Virus record (IMG/VR): IMGVR_UViG_3300032893_000010
Location: 52,131-116,130 of that record
Origin: a virus
DNA: 64,000 bases
Direction: 5' to 3' (one strand)
The notes under the pieces were generated by a model. That model did no database searches. It had not been told where the DNA came from and saw nothing but the letters and a program-made list of their open reading frames with translations. Positions 2,678-53,141 of this stretch are shown piece by piece (the stretch's first letter is position 1; every line of letters starts with the position of its first letter). Made by a program: the position numbers and the translations under genes.

Positions 2678-3050
2678 ACTGAGGAAAGCTGCCCCAGGCC
2701 AGTGGGATGATGCCAAGTGCAGGATCATAAGGGTAACTGAGGATTATGATCCTTTCTTCGAGGATGAGCACATGGATGATGCCCTGGATTTCTGTAACGG
2801 CCTTCATGATGATACGGTATGCCCGATAAGGCACAAATGCCTTCTGTTCGCCCTCTCTAATAATGAGAAGTTCGGTGTGTGGGGAGGCATGAGTGAGCTT
2901 GGAAGGAAAGCTATCAGGAAGAAAATGCCTGCTAGGGGAGGAAAACCTAATTATGACTGGCAGTGGATGAATGAGGAAACTGCGTTGTCAGGTCTTGATG
3001 CTGACAGATTGAGAAGAGAGCTAGATGAGGAAAAGAACTACCAAGACTGA
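2667..3050 (+). CDS. whiB: WhiB family transcription factor
   Basis: four Cys (C..FC..CP..C) and FGVWGG motif. Confidence 0.88.
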   Translation: MVLRLRKAAPGQWDDAKCRIIRVTEDYDPFFEDEHMDDALDFCNGLHDDTVCPIRHKCLLFALSNNEKFGVWGGMSELGRKAIRKKMPARGGKPNYDWQWMNEETALSGLDADRLRRELDEEKNYQD

Positions 3051-4038
3051 CGGTAGGAGAAGAGTTACAAAGACTGATGGCCGGTTAGCTGATTATTCGT
3101 CTCTGAGAACTGCTACGGGGATAGTAATCCCTGAAGTGCGGAGAGTACTACTGGACAGGGCAAGAAGAGACGATGAGATAACCAGGCACAGGAACAACAT
3201 CATATATCCTTCTGAGATGGCTAAGAATGACTGGTGCCCGAGAGCTACATATCACAGGATGACATCTGGTCACATGCCAGCTTCTAAATCATCGTTCACT
3301 TTAGAGAACGTGTTCAGTGAAGGTAACAGGATTCACGATAAATGGCAGTCGTGGATGGCTGAGACTGGAAAGCTCTGGGGCGACTGGAGATGCTCCAGAT
3401 GCTCTGAGTATGTATCGAATAGCGTTAAGCCTGGATCGTACTTCTCTGGTTCCTGCGTAGGAACAGGATGGGTGAAACTAGAAACTATAGGTGGCACTTC
3501 ATACGGGGTTTCTAAAGATCTGACTACTGATTTTTCTCATGACTGGAGATACAGGGAAGTTACGCTGAAGTCAGCATCTCTTCCGGTATCAGGCCACGCT
3601 GATGGTGCTCTCACGGAATATAATATTCTGGTTGAGCTTAAATCTCTCGGCGCTGGAGGTTTGAGGTTTGAAGCTCCTAATATGATAAAGCAGCACACCC
3701 ATGAGTCAAAGACCACATCTAAAAGCATACTCGACATTGACGGGCTCTGGAAAGATTTCCATCGTCCGCTGTCCGGCCATATCCGCCAGGGAAATATTTA
3801 CTTGTGGATGTGCCAGGAGAACAGACTGCCCTTTGACAGGATCTCATTCGTGTACGAATTCAAGGCTAACCAGCAGGCGAAAGAGTTTGTGGTTCCGTAC
3901 TCATATAGCATTGTCGAGCCTTTACTGGAAACTGCTGAGAATATCGTAGACTGCATAGCTAAGGGAACACCGCCTGACTGCTATTCGGGTAAGGGTGGCT
4001 GCTCTCAGTGCAGAGCATTCGAGAAAAAGGAGGAATGA
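3025..4038 (+). CDS. Cas4-like PD-(D/E)XK exonuclease
   Basis: PSEM..WCPR, GHADG..VELKS, QGNIY, C-terminal CSQC. Confidence 0.8.
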   Translation: MRKRTTKTDGRRRVTKTDGRLADYSSLRTATGIVIPEVRRVLLDRARRDDEITRHRNNIIYPSEMAKNDWCPRATYHRMTSGHMPASKSSFTLENVFSEGNRIHDKWQSWMAETGKLWGDWRCSRCSEYVSNSVKPGSYFSGSCVGTGWVKLETIGGTSYGVSKDLTTDFSHDWRYREVTLKSASLPVSGHADGALTEYNILVELKSLGAGGLRFEAPNMIKQHTHESKTTSKSILDIDGLWKDFHRPLSGHIRQGNIYLWMCQENRLPFDRISFVYEFKANQQAKEFVVPYSYSIVEPLLETAENIVDCIAKGTPPDCYSGKGGCSQCRAFEKKEE

Positions 4039-11566: not shown

Positions 11567-12070
11567 GTGGCGGTATCGTCGGTAGTCATTACCGTGGAAG
11601 GGGTATTGAAGAAGCATGTTGCTGACGCCCCTATCCCAGTCGGCATAGCTTTATATCACGGACTGGCTAATACTTTCAATGTGCTGCTAGCTGCTGATAT
11701 GGAAAAGAAAGAACTTGACAGATGGTGTGCTCTGGAGGGATTGAACAAGCACGCCGCAGTTGAGCATAATGAGGGAATAATAAAGAGCTTTGATCCTGAT
11801 TTCAGAAGGTTACAGCAGGTCAAGAATCTCAGGCAGCGAGGGTATAGCATAGATCTTGTTATAGAGCCGAATCCTTCTATAGTGGTTAAGCTGCTGGAGC
11901 ATGGTTTCAGTTGCATGACGTATACGCATGCAAGCTATTCCATGCCTCAGTGGCGCCCTGACTATCAGCATAAGATCAGGCCGTGGGATGACATTCTGGA
12001 CTACGAGATAAAAATGGCTGAGCTGAGGGCTATAGAAGAGATTTCCAAGGAGGACAAGGATAATCGATGA
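11567..12070 (+). CDS. HAD-like fold protein (degenerate)
   Basis: N-terminal VVITVEGVL resembles HAD motif I without the Asp. Confidence 0.45.
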   Translation: MAVSSVVITVEGVLKKHVADAPIPVGIALYHGLANTFNVLLAADMEKKELDRWCALEGLNKHAAVEHNEGIIKSFDPDFRRLQQVKNLRQRGYSIDLVIEPNPSIVVKLLEHGFSCMTYTHASYSMPQWRPDYQHKIRPWDDILDYEIKMAELRAIEEISKEDKDNR

Positions 12071-13527
12071 AGCTCTATTTCAGCGGGGCAGAGATACCAG
12101 CATGGAAGAAACTGCTGGAAAATCAGAAGATTCCGTGTGTGTCTCTGTCCTACCTTGGTCTTAGCAGGAGAACTAAGCAATCTCTCAAGGGAATGTTCTC
12201 TGCCCAGGAAGTATTCCTGGATTCTGGAGGATACAGCTATAACAAAGGAGAAGAGAAGTATGCTTTCGAGGATGCCCTTGAGTTTGCGGCACAATACATG
12301 GATTTCGTTAAAGAGAATATCGATTCCGTGTCTCTTGTATCTGAGTTTGATGCTGTTCAGCTTGGCGATGACTTTATCCAGAAGTTCAGGGAAGATTTTT
12401 ATTCTCGGCTACCACCTGAGAAGTTCATGCCAGTGTGGCATGAACGGGATGGAAGAGAAGCTCTGGAAGCGCTTTGCTCATCTTATTCCGTAGTAGGGGT
12501 AAGCCAGAATGATATTCACGGTAATCTGGATGATGTTCCTCTTCTTAATTCATTCTCAAGAAGATACGGGACAAGACTTCATGGTGTTGGTATCACATCC
12601 ATGAGGCTTATGGAGGCAGTAAAATGGGATTCGGTCTCTTCTACATCGTGGCTTACACCGTCTAAGTACGGAGATACTTTCGTATGGGATAAACGTAAGC
12701 TGCACAGATATCCTAGAGATTACAAGAATAAGAGGAAGCAGCACAGAAGCTTGTTCATGGACAACGGCTTTGACTATGAGAAGATAGAAAATGACGACTC
12801 ACAGGAATTGTTAAGGTTATCTTTGTGGTCGTGGCAGAACTACGTCAACCATATTTCAGGAGTTACTACTCAAGTGAGGAACGAACCAGCGGAGTCTGAG
12901 GAAATGCTTTCAGGTGAAGTTGATATCCAGCAAGAATCAACAGGAAAAGAAGTTCTGGTATCTAGGGCTCATCAGCCTATTCCTGTCATGTCTACTATGT
13001 GGAAAGAGGAGACGAATCTTGAAGATGACGCTGTAACTGCGATACCTCATCTCATAGTACGATCGGAATCTATGAGGGTGTGCGACAACTGTTTCATAAG
13101 AGATAAGTGTCCTGGAGCGCAGGAGAATTCAACTTGCCTTTATAACATCCCAGTAGAGGTGAAAACCAAGGATCAGCTAAGATCTTTGCATGATGCACTC
13201 ATAGAAATACAATCTCAGAGGGTTCTTTTCATGAAAATGGCTGAAGATATGAGCGGAGGGTACGCAGATCCTAACCTATCGTCAGAAATTGACAGGCTTA
13301 ACCGGATGATAAAGACTAAGATAGAGGGAGATAAGTCTACATTCGCAATGACTGTGACTGCATCGGAATCGTCATCAGGACCAGGGATATTTGATAAGAT
13401 GTTCGGCCCAGCAGCAGGGGAGAAGCTTCGTCAGCTTGATACACCTCAAGATCCTGACTGTATTATCGCTGAGGTTCTTGACGAGAAAACTGATTATTCA
13501 CCTGTCCCTCCAAGAAGAGGGGAGTAA
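12067..13527 (+). CDS. TGT/DpdA-like TIM-barrel protein with C-terminal Cys cluster
   Basis: FLDSGGYS, PVWH, RLHGVG, DSVSSTSW; CDNC..C..C. Confidence 0.5.
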   Translation: MKLYFSGAEIPAWKKLLENQKIPCVSLSYLGLSRRTKQSLKGMFSAQEVFLDSGGYSYNKGEEKYAFEDALEFAAQYMDFVKENIDSVSLVSEFDAVQLGDDFIQKFREDFYSRLPPEKFMPVWHERDGREALEALCSSYSVVGVSQNDIHGNLDDVPLLNSFSRRYGTRLHGVGITSMRLMEAVKWDSVSSTSWLTPSKYGDTFVWDKRKLHRYPRDYKNKRKQHRSLFMDNGFDYEKIENDDSQELLRLSLWSWQNYVNHISGVTTQVRNEPAESEEMLSGEVDIQQESTGKEVLVSRAHQPIPVMSTMWKEETNLEDDAVTAIPHLIVRSESMRVCDNCFIRDKCPGAQENSTCLYNIPVEVKTKDQLRSLHDALIEIQSQRVLFMKMAEDMSGGYADPNLSSEIDRLNRMIKTKIEGDKSTFAMTVTASESSSGPGIFDKMFGPAAGEKLRQLDTPQDPDCIIAEVLDEKTDYSPVPPRRGE

Positions 13528-38701: not shown

Positions 38702-38785
38702 TCCCGTATAGTGTAATTGGCAACACACCTGGCTCTGAACCAGGAGACGGTCACGCTTGTTTTAGTTCGAATCTAGATGCGGGAG
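38702..38785 (+). tRNA. tRNA-Gln(CTG) with expanded variable region
   Basis: cloverleaf, loop CTCTGAA, 16-nt variable region. Confidence 0.8.
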
Positions 38786-39059
38786 CAAAAGGAAGGATGA
38801 CATGGATGTTAAAGGAGTCATCGTCCTGGCTAATCTTATGGCCAGGCACAGGGAACATCTCGCTATCACAGCGGAGAATGACCCTAATCCTCGGATTAGG
38901 TGGGCTACCGTAAAGGCCAGGGCTCTCCAGGCCAGCAGTTCAGTGCAGAATCCTGTTCCTACTCTCCTTAAAAACAGGCAGGAAATTTCTGAATAAGGGA
39001 TCTTGACATTCGGGGGTCCCTGTGATATTCTTATATCAGATCGGCAATCAAAAGTAAAT

Positions 39060-40094: not shown

Positions 40095-40195
40095 CGGGGA
40101 ATGTTGGTCTTTATGGCGCATACGGTTTGGAAGCAACCCCATAAAAGCACAGTAAACCGTTCCACTGAGCCGGACAGTATATTCCGGTATTTTGC

Positions 40196-40269
40196 TGGCT
40201 CTTAATTCAGTCGGTTAGAATGCTTGCCTGATATGCAAGATGTCACAGGTTCAAATCCTGTAGAGCCAA
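40196..40269 (+). tRNA. tRNA-Ile(GAT)
   Basis: cloverleaf. Confidence 0.88.
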
Positions 40270-40746
40270 CGGAATCTGATTCCTTCCAGTTCATCGGAGG
40301 TAATTATGTGTGAACATTTAGAGGCGAGAGTAATAGCGTGGGAAGTAATACAAGGACATAAATACCTCTACATGTACTGCTACGCCTGTGATAAGGCATG
40401 GACAGAAACTGAACCAGTAGTGAGGAGGGAACACGAACCAGAGTAGGATGCAGGATGAAAAAGAATATTAGCTGGAGGAGAGAATGGCTGTGAATCCTGA
40501 ATGCTGCCCCCATACTAATGCTCATGAAACAGGCAGGACTACGAAGAACGGCATGACAGTAATTTTCATGCATTGCGATACTTGCGGAAAGAACTTCAAA
40601 GAACAAGAATAATGTCTAAGTCATGTAACCACGCAGACAGAACGTATCAATGTTCTGTTGTTAACCCGAAAAAAAGTATTCGCACTACGTACTGGTATTG
40701 TAATGACTGCCACAAGTTCTTTACTGAAGAAGAAGACATGGATTAG

Positions 40747-45299: not shown

Positions 45300-45382
45300 G
45301 CCAGTATATCCAAGCGGCTCAAAGGGCGCGGTCTGTAAAACCGTTGGTTATACCTTCCTAGGTTCGAATCCTAGTGCTGGCA
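45300..45382 (+). tRNA. tRNA-Tyr(GTA)
   Basis: cloverleaf with long variable arm. Confidence 0.9.
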
Positions 45383-45481
45383 CGTGTTCCATAGGATCAC
45401 ATTGCGACTATCAATAGTTCAATTTAATCCTTCATTAAGTAGGAGCTGACAATAGGTGACCGAAAACAATGAAGGTATCGT

Positions 45482-48108: not shown

Positions 48109-49188
48109 ATGGCTTTATATAGTCTTGAGCAAGAGCCTCAGAACCATGTTACGTTCGTTTTTGATGAATCGTACAGCATGTATCCCCATTCTGTGGCTCT
48201 TGTCAAGCTTTTTGACAACGAAGTTCGCTATCTGGCTAAGAGAAGCCTGGAAATGAACCAGGAAACTCGTGTTTCCGTGTATCTTTTCAGCAATCCTGGC
48301 ACTGCTAGATGCGTTTTGTACGACTCTGACGTGCTCAGAGCGCAAGAATCCTTCACTTTGAAGGGAAAATACAGCCCTGAGGGCAATACAGCCCTGTGTG
48401 ATGCTGCTGTTCTTGCTGTCGAAGACCTGAAAATGGTTCCTACTAAGTACGGACAGCACTCCCACTGGCTTATGATCTTTACTGATGGCATAGAGAACAG
48501 CAGTTCTTTCAATAACAGGCGGAAAATCAAGACTTTGATTCCGTCTCTGACCGATGAGTGGACTGTTTCTATCTTCGTCCCAGATCAGATTGCTAAGAAG
48601 CAGGTTACCGACTGGGGTTTCCCCAAAGATAATGTAGCTATCTGGGATACGACCTCTGAAAGAGGCATGGATGAGGTTGTAAACACAGTACGTAAGGCTT
48701 CTGAATCGTATTTCACGCTGAGGTCTACCGGCGCTAAGGGCTCTAAGAGCCTATTCTCACTGAATTCTCTCACCCGAGCTCAGATCAGGAGTGAGCTTAA
48801 GCCTCTCCCGTATGGTTATTACCAGATTTTGCAGCATCCTAAGGATGTGAAGACGACTATCTGGATCAGGGACCTGGTTAATAACAAGCTTCCCCTGACA
48901 TATAAGAGAGGGTATGGCTACTATGAACTGGTAAAGAATGAGCATATCAAGGGTCATAAGGGTGTTATCATCGAGCAGGGCGGACAGTTCTATGCTGGTA
49001 ACGCAAGGGATCTTCTAGGGCTGCCGGATGATGAGGTAAAGGTCGGCCCAGATCACTCCACGGAGTATAAGATCTTCGTGCAGAGTGATAGCCACAACAG
49101 GAATATCATTCCTGGCCAGCGTGTCTTGTACCTGACAGGTAATGGGTTGACTCACTGGCCGCAATTTCCGCTGAAAATTTCTGAATAA
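48109..49188 (+). CDS. vWA-domain protein
   Basis: MIDAS DESYSM, GNTALCDA, FTDGIENSS. Confidence 0.82.
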   Translation: MALYSLEQEPQNHVTFVFDESYSMYPHSVALVKLFDNEVRYLAKRSLEMNQETRVSVYLFSNPGTARCVLYDSDVLRAQESFTLKGKYSPEGNTALCDAAVLAVEDLKMVPTKYGQHSHWLMIFTDGIENSSSFNNRRKIKTLIPSLTDEWTVSIFVPDQIAKKQVTDWGFPKDNVAIWDTTSERGMDEVVNTVRKASESYFTLRSTGAKGSKSLFSLNSLTRAQIRSELKPLPYGYYQILQHPKDVKTTIWIRDLVNNKLPLTYKRGYGYYELVKNEHIKGHKGVIIEQGGQFYAGNARDLLGLPDDEVKVGPDHSTEYKIFVQSDSHNRNIIPGQRVLYLTGNGLTHWPQFPLKISE

Positions 49189-49193
49189 AATCC

Positions 49194-49222
49194 TTGACAT
49201 CATGTCCCGAACGTGGTATCAT
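49194..49222 (+). promoter_or_regulatory. promoter for the tRNA/Y RNA/Ro60 operon
   Basis: TTGACA-N17-TATCAT with upstream AAATTTCTGAAT. Confidence 0.7.
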
Positions 49223-49363: not shown

Positions 49364-49451
49364 TCCAGGTGTGAAGAATACGGTTGCTTCAAACAAACAG
49401 TTAGAAAAACTGTTAAGTTACCAGGACACCGTATTCGATTGATTCTCTGGG
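49364..49451 (+). ncRNA. Y-RNA-like 1 (stem-loop cargo)
   Basis: CCAGGTG..GAATACGGT/ACCGTATTC..GATTCTCTGG. Confidence 0.7.
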
Positions 49452-49497
49452 TCTAGCTAGTGGTCTACCCACCCATATCATATCTAACTATCAAGTT

Positions 49498-49857
49498 ATG
49501 ATATACTTAGATATGGCAAAAAGCAAGGAAGCTCAATCTAAAGCGTCTCGTAAACATTACGAGAACAACCGTCAGGCAATGATAGCTCGTGCAATGAAGT
49601 TTAAAGACGAGTTAAAGAAAAGCATAAGACAGTACATACAAGATCTGAAATCCTCAACACCTTGCAAGGACTGTGAGGTTCAGTATCCATATTATGTTAT
49701 GCATTTCGACCATTTACCTGAGTTTGAAAAAAAGTTTGATATTGGGAACTCTTCTAAGTGGACAAGCATGAAGAAGGTTCTTGATGAGATGGAAAAATGT
49801 GAGATAGTTTGCGCTAACTGTCACGCAGAAAGAACACATCGACGCGCGGTGGTGTAA
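49498..49857 (+). CDS. HNH endonuclease
   Basis: CKDC, FDH, CEIVCANCH. Confidence 0.88.
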   Translation: MIYLDMAKSKEAQSKASRKHYENNRQAMIARAMKFKDELKKSIRQYIQDLKSSTPCKDCEVQYPYYVMHFDHLPEFEKKFDIGNSSKWTSMKKVLDEMEKCEIVCANCHAERTHRRAVV

Positions 49858-49914
49858 AGGGAACACGCTGGTCTCATAAGCCAGATAATGCCAGTTCGAG
49901 TCTGGTCTGCGCTA
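49843..49914 (+). tRNA. tRNA-Met(CAT), 1:72 mismatch (initiator-like)
   Basis: cloverleaf; overlaps the HNH stop. Confidence 0.85.
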
Positions 49915-49950
49915 CGAACTAGGATTGATTTATCTAGGATAAAGTTTAAT

Positions 49951-50074
49951 GCCAGGTGCATTGAGTACAGATACTTCATTAGCAGAGCCAATATTTGCTA
50001 TAGCTCAAGATAAGAGCGCCGACTTCATACGTCGGAGGTTATGACATTTCTCTGTTCTCGCCCGATTCTCTGGC
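49951..50074 (+). ncRNA. Y-RNA-like 2 (tRNA-CAT opened at T loop)
   Basis: scaffold plus TAGCAGA-GCCA-ATA-TTTGCTA, D arm, CCGAC-TTCATAC-GTCGG. Confidence 0.75.
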
Positions 50075-50314
50075 GCTAATTTTAACTTAGGAGGAAGAAA
50101 GTGTACGTAACAGGTAAAGAACTTATATCTGAACTTCAGAGATTACCTGAAGAAGCCCAGAATCTGGCAGTTTACTTCAAGTGCAGAGAGAATAATCTTG
50201 AGGGAATGCTGGAAGTGTTTGATTTGAAAGTCGTTCCTGCTGGATACGGGCAGGTTATTCTTCTTCTTCCTGCTTAATTAAGTTTGTCCATACTGTACCT
50301 CCTTCCGTATGGAT

Positions 50315-50468
50315 ATCCCTGGTGTGCTTGTCCAGAGTTACTTCAATAATGGTAAAACATACATTTGAAACATGTAAATTGTTAGTTCGAATCTAACCAC
50401 GGGCACCAGATCATGCCCGTGAAGTTTATAACTTTGAAAAACACCTCTGACCGTTTATTCTCAGGGAT
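50315..50468 (+). ncRNA. Y-RNA-like 3 (tRNA-GAA opened at D loop)
   Basis: scaffold plus TACAT-TTGAAAC-ATGTA, T arm, CACGGGC-ACCA..GCCCGTG. Confidence 0.75.
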
Positions 50469-50529
50469 TGTCATTTTATTTGTTTTACCTCTGCGCCGAA
50501 CATCTTTGAATGCTCAGGGCAGAGTTCAT

Positions 50530-50601
50530 GGGCCTGTGGCTGAATGGCTTAGGCAGATGATTGCAACCCATCTTTATCCGGTTCAAATCCGGCATGGCCC
50601 T
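50530..50601 (+). tRNA. tRNA-Cys(GCA)
   Basis: cloverleaf, U73. Confidence 0.85.
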
Positions 50602-50605
50602 CTGT

Positions 50606-50748
50606 AAATCCAGGTGCAATTGCGAGAGTTACTTCATACAAATGATCAAATCGGAAAAGATAATTCTCTGTAAAAGAATAAATTGCAGGTTCAAGTCCTG
50701 CTTTGTATAGCAAAGCTAATAAACTCTTGCTTCCTATTCTCTGGATTT
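50606..50748 (+). ncRNA. Y-RNA-like 4 (linear tRNA-GTA embedded)
   Basis: scaffold around a cloverleaf at 50636-50709. Confidence 0.75.
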
Positions 50749-50763
50749 TCTGAAATTTAACAT

Positions 50764-50897
50764 AGCCTGGTGCGAGGACTTCAGCTACTTCACTTTTTAA
50801 TCTGCGTGCGATGGTTCGAATCCATTCCCCATGGCGGGTAGCTCAGCGGAAGAGCAGCAGAATACGGTAAAAGCTGGTGTCAGTTAACCCTCAGGCT
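50764..50897 (+). ncRNA. Y-RNA-like 5 (YrlA-type topology)
   Basis: T arm, closed acceptor, D arm, TCTGC/GCAGA stem. Confidence 0.8.
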
Positions 50898-50910
50898 GCG
50901 ACAAAACTTA

Positions 50911-51072
50911 ATAGCCAGGTGCAAAGAGACTCGGTTACTTCTAAATATGACATGCGGAGTCCGAGGGCAGGTTCGATTCCTGAAGCCCGACCAATCAACG
51001 GGTGGTAGCTCACAGTGGGAGAGCGCGAAAAAAATACGAAATTACACCGCGTTTCGAATATTCTCTGGCTAT
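50911..51072 (+). ncRNA. Y-RNA-like 6 (YrlA-type topology)
   Basis: CAGG-TTCGATT-CCTG, GCCCG-ACCA..CGGGT, D arm GCTC/GAGC. Confidence 0.78.
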
Positions 51073-51090
51073 TTCATCATGGGAGGTCAA

Positions 51091-51201
51091 ATGGCAGCTA
51101 AACTATGCGGGTGTACTTGTCCCTCATGCCAGGAGATTAACTTCTTCGGCAGAGGCAGTCACTGCGGCAGCAAGAAATGCACGAGTACTATGGAAAAATA
51201 A
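51091..51201 (+). CDS. 36-aa Cys-rich peptide
   Basis: GGAGG RBS; CGCTCPSC..HC..C. Confidence 0.5.
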   Translation: MAAKLCGCTCPSCQEINFFGRGSHCGSKKCTSTMEK

Positions 51202-51210
51202 TTTAATATT

Positions 51211-51309
51211 ACCTGGTGCGAAAGAAACAGTTACTTCATGGTTCGATCCCACGTATTTCTGTTAGAAATAGCTAAAGGCAGCTAACACTGTTTCACATTA
51301 TTCTCAGGT
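51211..51309 (+). ncRNA. Y-RNA-like 7 (minimal T/acceptor/D module)
   Basis: TGG-TTCGATC-CCA, TATTTCT/AGAAATA, TAGCT/AGCTA. Confidence 0.72.
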
Positions 51310-51325
51310 TCAGTACGTATTACCC

Positions 51326-51420
51326 AATGCCCAGGTGCGTTGACAACGGTTACTTCAGCAATTGTCTATCAAACAATAGTAGCTAAAAATTATGCCGTTG
51401 TCTCTGATTCTCTGGGCATT
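51326..51420 (+). ncRNA. Y-RNA-like 8 (lone anticodon stem-loop)
   Basis: GACAACGGT/GCCGTTGTC, ATTGT-CTATCAA-ACAAT. Confidence 0.72.
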
Positions 51421-51461: not shown

Positions 51462-53141
51462 ATGGCACGACAGAACACAGTACGTCTGACTTCAAGGACA
51501 ACTCCCCTGAAGTCAGAGTACTCATCAACAGCTAGAACAGCTACAGGTGGCCAGGGTTTCGTTTCTGATTCTAACTCTGAGCTGTTCAGGCTCGGAGTAA
51601 ACGGCTTGTTAGGTAAGGAAGAAACTTACCATGAAAGCGGTAAGTCCAGGGACAGCAGGTTCACTGATCTTGTTTCTGAGCTTGCTGTAAATGATCCTGG
51701 CTGGACAGCAGGATTTCTTACATGGCTTCGTGGTCCGGAGGCTAATATCAGGACAGCATCTCTTATTGGTGCTGCTGATTATGTGCATGCAAGACTAGCT
51801 GCTGGTGTTAAGGAATCCGGTAAGTCTAAGGGTTTCAACAGGACAGTAGTCGATGGTGTATGCCAGAGAGCTGATGAGCCTGGTGAACTTGCAAGCATTT
51901 ATCTTTCTGAATACGGTAAGCTTCCTAAGCCAGTGAAGAGAGGTCTGGGGGATGCTGCTTCTAGGCTGTGGAATCCTTATGCCACGATGAAGTACGATAC
52001 TGCTTCTCATGGCCTGAGGTTTGCTGATGTTATGAACCTTTCCCATTTCACGCTTGCTGACAATGAACTAGCAGCTCATATTATCAACCGCAGGTACGGT
52101 AATGATGAGGATTGGGCTTCTCTTCCTGAGATGGTGAAGAACAATATTTCCCTGAGGAAGGAAGTTGCCAAGGGCAACTACGACATTCTGACCAATTCCA
52201 GGGTTCTCAAGTCTGCTGGCATGACATGGGAAGACGCTTTGTCTCTTGCCGGAAATCATGTTCCTAAGGACAAGCTGTGGAACGCTCTTATCCTTGGCGG
52301 TCAGGTTCCTATCTTCGCTGCACTGAGAAACCTCAGGAATTTCACTGAGGCTGGGATCTCTCAGCAGGCCAAGGAATATATTCATGATCAGCTAACTAAT
52401 GAAATAATAATCGCTAAGTCGAGAATCTTGCCATTCAGATTCCTGTCAGCGCTTGAGGCTCAGGATTCATATGAGTGGTACAGTGACCTTGAGACCGCTG
52501 TTCAGATTGCCACTAGGAACGTTCCAAGGCTTGAAGGCAAGACTATCGTCCTTGTTGATACTTCAGGTTCAATGGATTCTCCGGTGAGCAATAAGTCCAA
52601 GATGACACGTTCTGGTCTTGCTGCTTTCTTCGGCGGCGCTTTTGCGGCGCATAACTCAGATGATGTAGCTTTGTACATTTATGCTGACGGTGTTAAGAGA
52701 ATTCCTGTGAAGAAGGGACATTCTGTGCTGAAGCTGGCTGAGGAAATGCATCGCAGGACTGGTGAGGTCGGGCATGGTACTCAGACAGGAAGGGCCATGA
52801 GGCAGGCTTGTTCTGAGAATCCGGATGCTAAGAGGCTTATCGACAATACTGACATGCAGTCTTTTGCTCATGGTTCAAGAGCACATGTTTTAAGTTACAG
52901 CGGCTTTGGTTTCAGTTCATACAACAGTAATGGTTATTCAAGGCAAGGTACTGCTGCTGACGTTCCTGATAGTGTGTTCTTGTATTCTAACGACCTGTCA
53001 GGATATAAGACAGCTAACGTCCAGACTGGTGATGGTTCCCGTACTCATCAGCTATCAGGTATGATGGGTGATTCTACTTACAAGTGGATGAAGGCTATCG
53101 AAGCTGGCACGAATGCTGACTGGCCATGGCTGAAGAAGTAA
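51462..53141 (+). CDS. Ro60/TROVE-domain RNA-binding protein (Rsr homolog)
   Basis: QRADEPGE, KYD, MTWE, ALRNLRNF, SRILPFRF, vWA VDTSGSM. Confidence 0.9.
   Translation: MARQNTVRLTSRTTPLKSEYSSTARTATGGQGFVSDSNSELFRLGVNGLLGKEETYHESGKSRDSRFTDLVSELAVNDPGWTAGFLTWLRGPEANIRTASLIGAADYVHARLAAGVKESGKSKGFNRTVVDGVCQRADEPGELASIYLSEYGKLPKPVKRGLGDAASRLWNPYATMKYDTASHGLRFADVMNLSHFTLADNELAAHIINRRYGNDEDWASLPEMVKNNISLRKEVAKGNYDILTNSRVLKSAGMTWEDALSLAGNHVPKDKLWNALILGGQVPIFAALRNLRNFTEAGISQQAKEYIHDQLTNEIIIAKSRILPFRFLSALEAQDSYEWYSDLETAVQIATRNVPRLEGKTIVLVDTSGSMDSPVSNKSKMTRSGLAAFFGGAFAAHNSDDVALYIYADGVKRIPVKKGHSVLKLAEEMHRRTGEVGHGTQTGRAMRQACSENPDAKRLIDNTDMQSFAHGSRAHVLSYSGFGFSSYNSNGYSRQGTAADVPDSVFLYSNDLSGYKTANVQTGDGSRTHQLSGMMGDSTYKWMKAIEAGTNADWPWLKK

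What the first reader, a model, noticed from the sequence alone, without database searches (positions are those of the whole stretch)
50606..50748. Y-like 4: an unpermuted tRNA(GTA) nested in the scaffold through its acceptor ends
50636-50709 folds as ATACAAA/TTTGTAT acceptor, ATC..GAT D arm, ATTCT-CTGTAAA-AGAAT and GCAGG-TTCAAGT-CCTGC. Its variable loop is short, unlike bacterial class II tRNA-Tyr, and a normal tRNA-Tyr exists at 45300. This points to mimicry rather than translation. A tRNA finder would probably mislabel it as a weak tRNA.
Basis: partly seen in the sequence, partly recalled or inferred. Interest (0 to 1): 0.75.

Follow-up and report, generated by a model that had tools for sequence, protein, structure and literature searches.

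The report
Full tRNA cloverleaf inside phage Y RNA
A 116-kb soil phage carries, among eight small "Y RNA" genes just upstream of its Ro60 RNA-binding protein gene, one whose variable part is a complete tRNA-shaped fold with a tyrosine anticodon; related phages suggest it began as a tRNA look-alike rather than a working tRNA, but this copy has regained a perfect tRNA stem.

Summary
Window 50636-50709 is a canonical class-I cloverleaf with anticodon GUA. Its flanks (50606-50635, 50710-50748) form two 9-bp helices.

That two-helix handle recurs in eight tandem elements directly upstream of a TROVE+vWA (Ro60/Rsr) gene. Its 5' motif is 27-fold enriched upstream of Rsr genes in 68 of 77 other viral loci, and it also sits in unannotated gaps of cultured Streptomyces and Gordonia phages. 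The element is therefore a Y RNA.

Four orthologues (Rsr 45-70% identical) keep the handle and the cloverleaf with many compensatory changes. Their acceptor, however, is only 5 bp and uses the conserved ACUUCA of the handle. Their anticodons are CUA, AAC, UUC and UUA, two of them nonsense. The ancestral module was therefore a mimic, not a decoder.

On the Rsr tree the window copy is nested among these orthologues. Its own 7-bp acceptor plus A73 is thus derived. Whether this copy stays in the Ro60 particle (my best guess, about 0.6), is nicked by RNase P, or is released as a tRNA could not be tested.

The topology differs from YrlA and resembles the Deinococcus Yrn1 model. This scan has already noted handle-plus-tRNA-mimic arrays beside Ro60-like genes on other DNA.

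The parts
49194..49222 (+). promoter-like site (TTGACA-17-TATCAT, TG before the -10) ahead of tRNA-Glu and the Y array; a possible start of one long tRNA/Y RNA/rsr transcript
   Evidence: 11 of 12 matches. This is a consensus match only, and the number of such sites in the region is not above shuffles.
50530..50601 (+). tRNA-Cys(GCA), ending 4 nt before the handle; its 3' processing would define the 5' end of the element
   Evidence: The same Cys-then-element order is seen in L201 and L122.
50606..50614 (+). handle helix 1, 5' strand (AAAUCCAGG)
   Evidence: pairs with 50740-50748; 4 of its 9 pairs show compensatory change among orthologues
50613..50621 (+). GGUGCA motif and internal loop, the proposed Ro60 contact; compare GGUCCGA of vertebrate Y RNAs and GNCGAA of YrlA
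   Evidence: GGUG is invariant in all 5 orthologues. CCWGGUGYR is present in 8 in-window copies. The reference motifs are from PMC4201824.
50622..50630 (+). handle helix 2, 5' strand (GCGAGAGUU)
   Evidence: pairs with 50722-50730; 4 of 7 scored pairs are compensatory
50630..50635 (+). conserved UACUUC. In orthologues ACUUCA is the 5' acceptor strand of the module. Here it is an unpaired 5' leader.
50636..50709 (+). complete class-I tRNA cloverleaf, anticodon GUA (50670-50672), 7-bp A/U-rich acceptor, A73, no encoded CCA
   Evidence: ARAGORN; Rfam tRNA 63.4 bits; G+C 0.30; cloverleaf is essentially the MFE of the isolated 74-mer: acceptor, anticodon and T arms as drawn, D stem shifted
50710..50721 (+). 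3' linker GCAAAGCUAAUA. Its CAAAGC can pair with GCUUUG (50700-50705) and compete with the acceptor stem.
   Evidence: acceptor pair probability is 0.04 in the full-length context
50722..50730 (+). handle helix 2, 3' strand (AACUCUUGC)
50731..50739 (+). 3' side of the internal loop, carrying the start of the conserved AUUCUC
50740..50748 (+). handle helix 1, 3' strand (UCUGGAUUU)
51462..53141 (+). Ro60/Rsr orthologue (TROVE + vWA, 559 aa), the presumed protein partner
   Evidence: Pfam TROVE 2.5e-17 and VWA_2 1e-6; 30-37% identical to annotated 'Ro-like RNA binding protein' genes of Streptomyces and Gordonia phages

Best explanation
The element at 50606-50748 is one of eight phage Y RNAs. Its paired 5' and 3' ends form two helices around a GGUGCA/AUUCUC internal loop. 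This handle is bound by the phage Ro60 (Rsr) protein encoded 0.7 kb downstream. Its variable effector module is a complete, unpermuted tRNA-shaped domain held on the handle by single-stranded linkers of 5 nt and 13 nt. The module is displayed as a tRNA mimic. It either brings a tRNA-recognising host factor to the Ro60 ring or sequesters that factor; it does not decode. In this lineage the module has acquired a true 7-bp acceptor stem with A73. By analogy with Mycobacterium smegmatis YrlA, this probably makes it an RNase P substrate, so the RNA may be nicked at 50635/50636 while the two halves stay paired in the particle. Shown here: the structure, its conservation and covariation, the linkage to Rsr, the non-conservation of the anticodon, and the derived state of the acceptor. 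Inferred: Ro60 binding, the tethering or decoy role, and RNase P nicking.
For: (1) Handle. Eight tandem copies on the + strand share the 5' motif, UACUUC and AUUCUCWGG, with different but complementary helix sequences. All lie within 2.1 kb upstream of a TROVE+vWA gene. (2) Link to Rsr. The 5' handle motif occurs at 1.53 per kb in the 1.5 kb upstream of Rsr in 68 of 77 viral loci, against 0.057 per kb elsewhere. It is also found in unannotated gaps upstream of the Ro-like genes of Streptomyces phage Quantum and Gordonia phage Rabbitrun. (3) Copies 5 and 6 have the YrlA order T arm, closed acceptor hairpin, D arm, and give weak Rfam YrlA hits. (4) Four orthologues of copy 4 (L201, L202, L203, L122) preserve the handle and cloverleaf. 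94.8% of cells are paired, 12 pairs show compensatory change, and 0 of 500 shuffles reach this; slid controls give at most 5 such pairs. The MFE of L201 and L203 is exactly handle plus cloverleaf. (5) These orthologues have a 5-bp acceptor with positions 1/72 and 2/71 mismatched. Rfam tRNA aligns three of them (L201, L122, L203) only locally over positions 3-68 at 48-52 bits; L202 was not in that scan. Their anticodons are CUA, AAC, UUC and UUA, while their Rsr genes are intact under the standard code and end in TAA or TAG. (6) The window module has G+C 0.30 against 0.44-0.60 for the other 28 tRNAs. It has a class-I variable loop, whereas the phage already has a class-II tRNA-Tyr, and it is no closer to that gene than to tRNA-Val or tRNA-Leu. 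(7) Precedent: M. smegmatis YrlA, which has a 7-bp acceptor, is cut by RNase P and receives CCA while still bound to Rsr (PMC4201824; bioRxiv 10.1101/312249).
Against: No RNA or protein-binding data exist for this uncultured phage, so Ro60 binding and the size of the mature RNA are inferred. This copy differs from its orthologues precisely in having a perfect 7-bp acceptor and discriminator A73 with a GUA anticodon, which is what a real tRNA-Tyr would need. Lack of an encoded CCA does not discriminate, because none of the 29 tRNAs encodes it. The single-stranded, A/U-rich linkers would allow ordinary 5' and 3' tRNA processing. The motif here reads GGUGCAA, not the GCGA seen in half of the paralogues. 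Nearest-neighbour folding of the full element prefers a competing hairpin over the acceptor stem, so the cloverleaf may not be the dominant fold before processing. Only five family members are known.
Confidence: 0.6

Rival explanations
1. It is a working extra tRNA-Tyr. A former mimic has regained a full acceptor stem and is cut out of the Y handle by RNase P and 3' nucleases, given CCA by the host enzyme and charged. The handle then serves only as a processing or Ro60-gated precursor duplex.
For: Perfect 7-bp acceptor, A73, GUA anticodon, and all tertiary-contact nucleotides (U8, A14, G18G19, A15-U48, U33, UUCAAGU T loop) in place. Rfam tRNA scores 63.4 bits full length, against 48-52 bits local for the three orthologues scanned. 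The acceptor is a derived, two-sided change that needs selection for pairing. All other tRNAs of the phage also need CCA addition. The 5- and 13-nt single-stranded linkers leave both ends accessible.
Against: The short variable loop contrasts with the long arm used by bacterial TyrRS (established knowledge of bacterial tRNA-Tyr identity). A1-U72 and six A-U pairs in the acceptor, with the lowest G+C of all tRNAs. A regular class-II tRNA-Tyr is already present. The orthologous modules clearly do not decode. The handle helices are fully maintained in this copy, which is unnecessary for a plain tRNA. The phage encodes no CCA-adding enzyme.
Confidence: 0.2
2. It is a decaying or neutral copy. One of eight redundant Y RNA paralogues is drifting, its tRNA-like look is inherited, and the GUA anticodon and acceptor stem have no present function.
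For: The anticodon is free to vary among orthologues. The composition is A/U-rich. A competing hairpin lowers the predicted acceptor probability to 0.04. The motif GCAA replaces GCGA.
Against: Every helix of the handle and cloverleaf is intact, and the tertiary-contact nucleotides are kept. A perfect complementary 7-mer pair arose on both strands in this lineage. The element type is retained across a clade whose Rsr proteins have diverged to 45% identity.
Confidence: 0.1
3. The shared flanks are not Y RNA handles. They would instead be generic spacer or processing repeats of the phage tRNA island, with the Ro60 gene nearby only by chance.
For: The array lies inside a 29-tRNA island. No element reaches the Rfam YrlA gathering score.
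Against: The handle motif is absent from the rest of the tRNA island. It tracks Rsr genes in 68 of 77 unrelated viral loci, including ones without tRNA islands. It is always on the Rsr strand, and it matches the GGUG...CUUC sequences in the M. smegmatis YrlA primers printed in PMC4201824.
Confidence: 0.04

Closest known systems
YrlA-type Y RNAs of bacteria and actinophages (Rfam RF02553; Chen et al. 2014, PMC4201824; structure in bioRxiv 10.1101/312249)
   Same: Encoded just upstream of Rsr/Ro60 on the same strand. The 5' and 3' ends pair into a handle with a G-rich CGAA-like motif. The effector module folds like tRNA with canonical D-loop/T-loop contacts. The M. smegmatis member with a 7-bp acceptor is cut by RNase P.
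   Different: YrlA is circularly permuted: T arm, closed acceptor hairpin, D arm. It has no anticodon loop, and the handle attaches at the anticodon-stem position. Here the order is the natural D, anticodon, T order with a 7-nt anticodon loop, and the handle attaches at the acceptor ends. Rfam YrlA does not match this copy; the best hit in the array is 23.6 bits against a cut-off of 69.
Deinococcus radiodurans Yrn1 as modelled in Chen et al. 2014 (PMC4201824)
   Same: The Ro-binding stem lies at the acceptor position, and an 'anticodon arm' with a 5-bp stem lies between D-like and T-like elements.
   Different: Yrn1 has a 6-nt loop, no full D arm and no variable arm, and tRNA models do not recognise it. 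The element here scores as a bona fide tRNA (63.4 bits).
Ordinary phage-encoded tRNA genes, including the class-II tRNA-Tyr at window 45300-45383
   Same: Cloverleaf, conserved tertiary nucleotides, no encoded CCA, and location in the same tRNA island.
   Different: Embedded between 18 bp of conserved Y handle. Class-I variable loop for a GUA anticodon. A1-U72 and G+C 0.30. Orthologues change the anticodon freely and lack a full acceptor.
Thermus phage phiLo Ro60 with Yrl1/Yrl2 (PMC12135203)
   Same: A phage Ro60 with two or more Y RNA-like genes upstream, of stem-bulge-stem design with a CGAA motif; binding was shown in vitro.
   Different: Judging only from the passages read, which do not mention a tRNA-like cloverleaf, the phiLo RNAs appear not to have one. 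The phiLo sequences were not compared here.

Membership tests
Y RNA (Ro60-associated ncRNA) | 5' and 3' ends pair into a long stem that encloses a variable module | tested here: met
   Two 9-bp helices with pair probabilities of 0.9-1.0 for most pairs; 8 of 16 handle pairs are compensatory among orthologues
Y RNA (Ro60-associated ncRNA) | Encoded next to a Ro60/Rsr orthologue on the same strand (within 4 kb in Chen et al. 2014) | tested here: met
   The TROVE+vWA gene starts 714 nt downstream on the + strand; the handle motif is 27-fold enriched upstream of Rsr in 68 of 77 viral loci
Y RNA (Ro60-associated ncRNA) | Ro60-binding motif in the 5' strand (GGUCCGA in vertebrates, GNCGAAN0-1G in YrlA) | tested here: inconclusive
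   GGUGCAAUU here, GGUGCGA in four paralogues and in most other phage loci. It is similar to the published consensus but not identical.
Y RNA (Ro60-associated ncRNA) | Physically bound and stabilised by Ro60 | not testable with these tools
YrlA (Rfam RF02553) | Permuted tRNA-like domain (T arm, closed acceptor hairpin, D arm) with no anticodon loop | tested here: not met
   The order here is acceptor, D, anticodon, T, acceptor, with a 7-nt anticodon loop
YrlA (Rfam RF02553) | Reaches the Rfam gathering score (69 bits) | tested here: not met
   No YrlA hit on this copy. Neighbouring copies 5 and 6 score 23.6 and 15.7 bits. No locus of 15 reached the cut-off.
tRNA (RF00005), structural membership | Cloverleaf with 7-bp acceptor, D, anticodon and T arms and conserved tertiary nucleotides | tested here: met
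   63.4 bits against a cut-off of 29, model positions 1-71; ARAGORN call
tRNA-Tyr, functional membership in a bacterial system | Class-II long variable arm; anticodon and identity conserved among orthologues | tested here: not met
   The variable loop is 5 nt. Orthologous modules carry CUA, AAC, UUC and UUA. The genuine class-II tRNA-Tyr lies at 45300.
tRNA-Tyr, functional membership in a bacterial system | Processed to about 75 nt, CCA added, aminoacylated | not testable with these tools
   No expression data could be obtained

The most novel reading that the evidence does not exclude
The anticodon-bearing cloverleaf is a Ro60-tethered bait for host enzymes that attack or inspect tRNA anticodon loops, such as anticodon nucleases used in anti-phage defence. 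The anticodon would then be swapped between phage lineages (GUA, CUA, UUA, UUC, AAC) to match the host's weapon. The regained 7-bp acceptor of this copy would make the bait indistinguishable from a real tRNA-Tyr.
Probability: 0.12. Interest if true: 0.85.

Novelty: new variant of a known kind. Interest (0 to 1): 0.55.

Why it matters
Y RNAs are thought to adapt the Ro60 ring to different partners through their variable module, and the only well-studied bacterial module is the permuted, anticodon-less YrlA. Here a phage offers a natural series on one handle: hairpins, permuted mimics and a full cloverleaf. There is also a traceable step from a 5-bp mimic to a tRNA-grade acceptor stem. This gives a direct way to ask what the tRNA shape is for: which host tRNA enzymes see it, whether RNase P nicks it, and whether a mimic can turn back into a tRNA. 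It is also a practical warning, because tRNA finders call these modules as tRNA-Tyr, suppressor, 'Pyl' or 'Stop' tRNAs. Such calls could be misread as evidence for codon reassignment in phage genomes.

Tried and rejected

A single-protein scan of viral contigs found nothing. A loose handle pattern returned only chance hits. Two patterns specific for this element type found no further members in viral contigs or in genome contigs; the best genome hit is an ordinary tRNA-Ile.

A full-length match of model R1 around tRNA-Ile at 40181-40300 is a plain tRNA with short flank pairing, not a handle.

Single ARAGORN calls just upstream of Rsr in GC-rich loci looked like further embedded tRNAs. They are misreads of handle plus mini-hairpin plus T arm of permuted YrlA-type RNAs.

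Recent duplication from the genuine tRNA-Tyr is rejected: 46 of 74 identities, the same as to tRNA-Val or tRNA-Leu.

Stop-codon reassignment as a reason for the CUA and UUA modules is rejected, because the Rsr genes are intact under code 11 and end in TAA or TAG.

The phage has no RtcB and no CCA-adding enzyme, so an rsr-rtcB repair-operon context does not apply.

Megablast against known phages found nothing.

Full report
**What is there.** The window is the 3' 64 kb of a 116-kb IMG/VR virus record. It holds UvsX-like recombinase, helicase and terminase genes and 29 ARAGORN tRNA calls.
- acceptor AUACAAA/UUUGUAU;
- U8 and G9;
- a 3-bp D stem with A14 and G18G19;
- anticodon arm AUUCU-CUGUAAA-AGAAU, with GUA at 50670-50672;
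- variable loop AAAUU;
- T arm GCAGG-UUCAAGU-CCUGC;
- discriminator A at 50709.

ARAGORN calls it tRNA-Tyr. Rfam tRNA scores it 63.4 bits over the whole model, in the middle of the window's real tRNAs. The prediction that a tRNA finder would see a weak tRNA is therefore wrong. A normal 84-nt class-II tRNA-Tyr lies at 45300-45383.

**The flanks are a Y RNA handle.**
- AAAUCCAGG (50606-14) pairs with UCUGGAUUU (50740-48), and GCGAGAGUU (50622-30) pairs with AACUCUUGC (50722-30). Most pairs have ensemble probabilities of 0.9-1.0.
- Between the helices lie GGUGCAAUU on the 5' side and a loop with AUUCUC on the 3' side. UACUUC precedes the cloverleaf.
- Eight elements on the + strand share this design with different, mutually complementary helix sequences. 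They start near 49365, 49952, 50318, 50610, 50766, 50915, 51212 and 51331.
- The gene at 51462-53141, directly downstream, is a TROVE+vWA protein. It is 30-37% identical to annotated Ro-like RNA-binding proteins of Streptomyces and Gordonia phages.
- In 77 other viral loci found through this protein, the 5' handle motif occurs at 1.53 per kb in the 1.5 kb upstream of Rsr, in 68 loci. Elsewhere it occurs at 0.057 per kb.
- The same motif, GGUGCGA followed by GGUUACUUC, sits three or four times in the gaps upstream of the Ro-like genes of phages Quantum and Rabbitrun, where no RNA is annotated.
- Copies 5 and 6 of the window have the YrlA order T arm, closed acceptor hairpin, D arm. They give weak Rfam YrlA hits of 23.6 and 15.7 bits.
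- The motif resembles the vertebrate GGUCCGA and the YrlA GNCGAA Ro60 contact (PMC4201824).

I therefore accept the array as phage Y RNAs. None reaches the Rfam cut-off.

**Orthologues of copy 4.** An alignment of Rsr relatives retrieved syntenic loci from viral and soil metagenome contigs. Four carry a positional or sequence orthologue of copy 4:

| Locus | Coordinates | Rsr identity | Anticodon |
|---|---|---|---|
| L201 | 2789-2919 | 70% | CUA |
| L202 | 217-342 | 65% | AAC |
| L203 | 2877-3004 | 55% | UUC |
| L122 | 3135-3261 | 45% | UUA |

- On the five-sequence alignment, the handle plus cloverleaf structure has 94.8% of cells paired.
- Twelve pairs show changes on both sides. None of 500 shuffles reaches this, and slid controls give at most five such pairs. 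RNAalifold finds the handle, anticodon and T helices on its own.
- The minimum-energy fold of L201 and L203 is exactly handle plus cloverleaf.
- A covariance model built from the five found no further full-length members in about 1.3 Mb of Rsr loci.

**What the orthologues say about function.**
- In all four, the 5' acceptor strand is the conserved ACUUCA of the handle, paired to UGAAG. Only 5 bp form, and positions 1/72 and 2/71 are mismatched.
- Rfam tRNA accordingly aligns the three it was run on (L201, L122, L203) only over model positions 3-68, at 48-52 bits; L202 was not in that scan.
- The anticodons CUA, AAC, UUC and UUA include two nonsense anticodons and an A34 anticodon.
- The Rsr genes of all these phages are nevertheless intact under the standard code and end in TAA or TAG.
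- L203 also has a regular tRNA-Glu(UUC) nearby.

A module with a defective acceptor and a freely drifting anticodon is a structural mimic, not a decoder.

**What is special about the window copy.**
- The Rsr tree places the window in a well-supported group with L201 and L202. L203 is sister to that group, followed by L122 and L206, with GC-rich loci as outgroup.
- Because L201, L202, L203 and L122 all have the ACUUCA/UGAAG acceptor, the window's separate 7-bp acceptor is derived.
- It arose by changes on both strands: CAAAUG inserted after AUA on the 5' side, and UUUGUAUAGC... in place of UGAAGAUU on the 3' side. ACUUC was left as a 5-nt leader.
- Such a perfect complementary pair is unlikely without selection for pairing.
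- The module is nevertheless atypical for a tRNA of this phage. Its G+C is 0.30 against 0.44-0.60 for the other 28, it has A1-U72, and six of its seven acceptor pairs are A-U.
- It is no closer to the genuine tRNA-Tyr than to tRNA-Val or tRNA-Leu.
- None of the 29 tRNAs encodes CCA and the phage has no CCA-adding enzyme. Absence of CCA is therefore uninformative.
- In the full-length element, nearest-neighbour folding prefers a hairpin GCUUUG/CAAAGC over the acceptor stem, whose pair probability is 0.04. For the isolated 74-mer the MFE forms the acceptor, anticodon and T arms, with only the D stem shifted from the canonical cloverleaf.

**Mechanism.**
- A strong promoter-like site at 49194 is followed by no terminator-like site that lies outside a tRNA arm until after rsr. 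This fits one precursor carrying tRNA-Glu, tRNA-Met, tRNA-Cys, the eight Y RNAs, small ORFs and rsr.
- tRNA-Cys ends 4 nt before the handle, so tRNA processing would release the element.
- I infer that Ro60 binds the handle and that the cloverleaf is the effector module. This follows the model in which Y RNAs tether Ro60 to other factors or gate its cavity.
- By analogy with M. smegmatis YrlA, whose 7-bp acceptor makes it an RNase P substrate that stays bound to Rsr in two halves, the window copy is probably nicked at 50635/50636.
- Release as a chargeable tRNA is possible but less likely, given the class-I shape, the composition and the behaviour of the orthologues.

I give 0.6 to the Ro60-bound mimic, 0.2 to a released tRNA-Tyr, 0.1 to a drifting copy and 0.04 to handles unrelated to Ro60.

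**Comparison with what is known.** Phage Y RNAs next to Rsr are known (Chen et al. 2014; phiLo, PMC12135203). tRNA mimicry by YrlA is also known, but YrlA is permuted, has a closed acceptor and lacks an anticodon loop. Only the modelled Yrn1 of Deinococcus places the Ro stem at the acceptor end, and it is far less tRNA-like. I found no paper describing a complete, unpermuted cloverleaf scoring as a bona fide tRNA on a Y handle. This scan's own notes list many handle-plus-tRNA-mimic arrays beside Ro60-like genes in other phages. The general theme is therefore not new to the scan. What is particular to this copy is the natural tRNA topology and the derived full acceptor.

**Limits.** There are only five family members. 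There are no expression data. Ro60 binding is inferred from linkage and motif similarity alone.

Noticed in passing
window 49365-51420: Eight tandem Y-RNA-like genes share one handle and carry different modules. Copies 1 and 8 are simple hairpins. Copy 2 has an acceptor hairpin, D arm and CAU anticodon arm. Copy 3 is an unpermuted tRNA-like fold with an extra hairpin. Copies 5-7 are YrlA-like. The same order of types recurs in L201, L203 and L122.
   Followed up: partly
window 50315-50470; L201 2503-2656; L203 3018-3173: Copy 3 also uses the handle's ACUUCA as an acceptor strand, paired to UGAAGU, and has anticodon and T arms in natural order. An 8-bp hairpin is inserted between the T stem and the acceptor 3' strand. 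Rfam tRNA gives 24-29 bits.
   Followed up: partly
window 50101-50277: A 58-aa ORF with a GGAGG ribosome-binding site sits inside the Y array between copies 2 and 3. It is conserved in L201 2298-2456 (40% identity, E 3e-14). It has no family match.
   Followed up: partly
L125, L133, L138, L143, L147, L150, L163, L164, L185, L187, L196, L197, about 100-450 nt upstream of Rsr: ARAGORN calls a single 'tRNA' with an odd anticodon in many GC-rich phage Rsr loci. These calls are misreads of handle 5' strand plus a mini hairpin with a CU-NNN-AA loop plus the T arm of a permuted YrlA-type RNA.
   Followed up: yes
L286 (Gordonia phage Rabbitrun) 1921-2278 and 2400-2453: Handle motifs lie under the annotated small hypothetical CDSs gp93 and gp94 and in the gap before the Ro-like gene. 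These CDS calls may be Y RNA genes.
   Followed up: no
window 12067-13527: A 486-aa ORF matches the PHROG family 'queuine tRNA-ribosyltransferase' (1.6e-76). In phages this family often modifies DNA (DpdA-like). It would be relevant only if it acted on G34 of GUA anticodons.
   Followed up: no
window 48109-49188: A 359-aa vWA-like protein of unknown function (phrog_26613, 8.7e-76; weak Pfam VWA) is encoded just before the promoter-like site of the Y array.
   Followed up: no
window 50700-50716: GCUUUG (end of the T stem plus acceptor 3' strand) can pair perfectly with CAAAGC in the 3' linker. CAAAUG in the new 5' acceptor strand and CAAAGC in the linker look like duplicates. This may be a relic of how the new acceptor arose, or an alternative fold.
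   Followed up: partly
window 38702-38786: The tRNA-Gln(CUG) call is 85 nt long, unusually long for a class-I tRNA.
   Followed up: no
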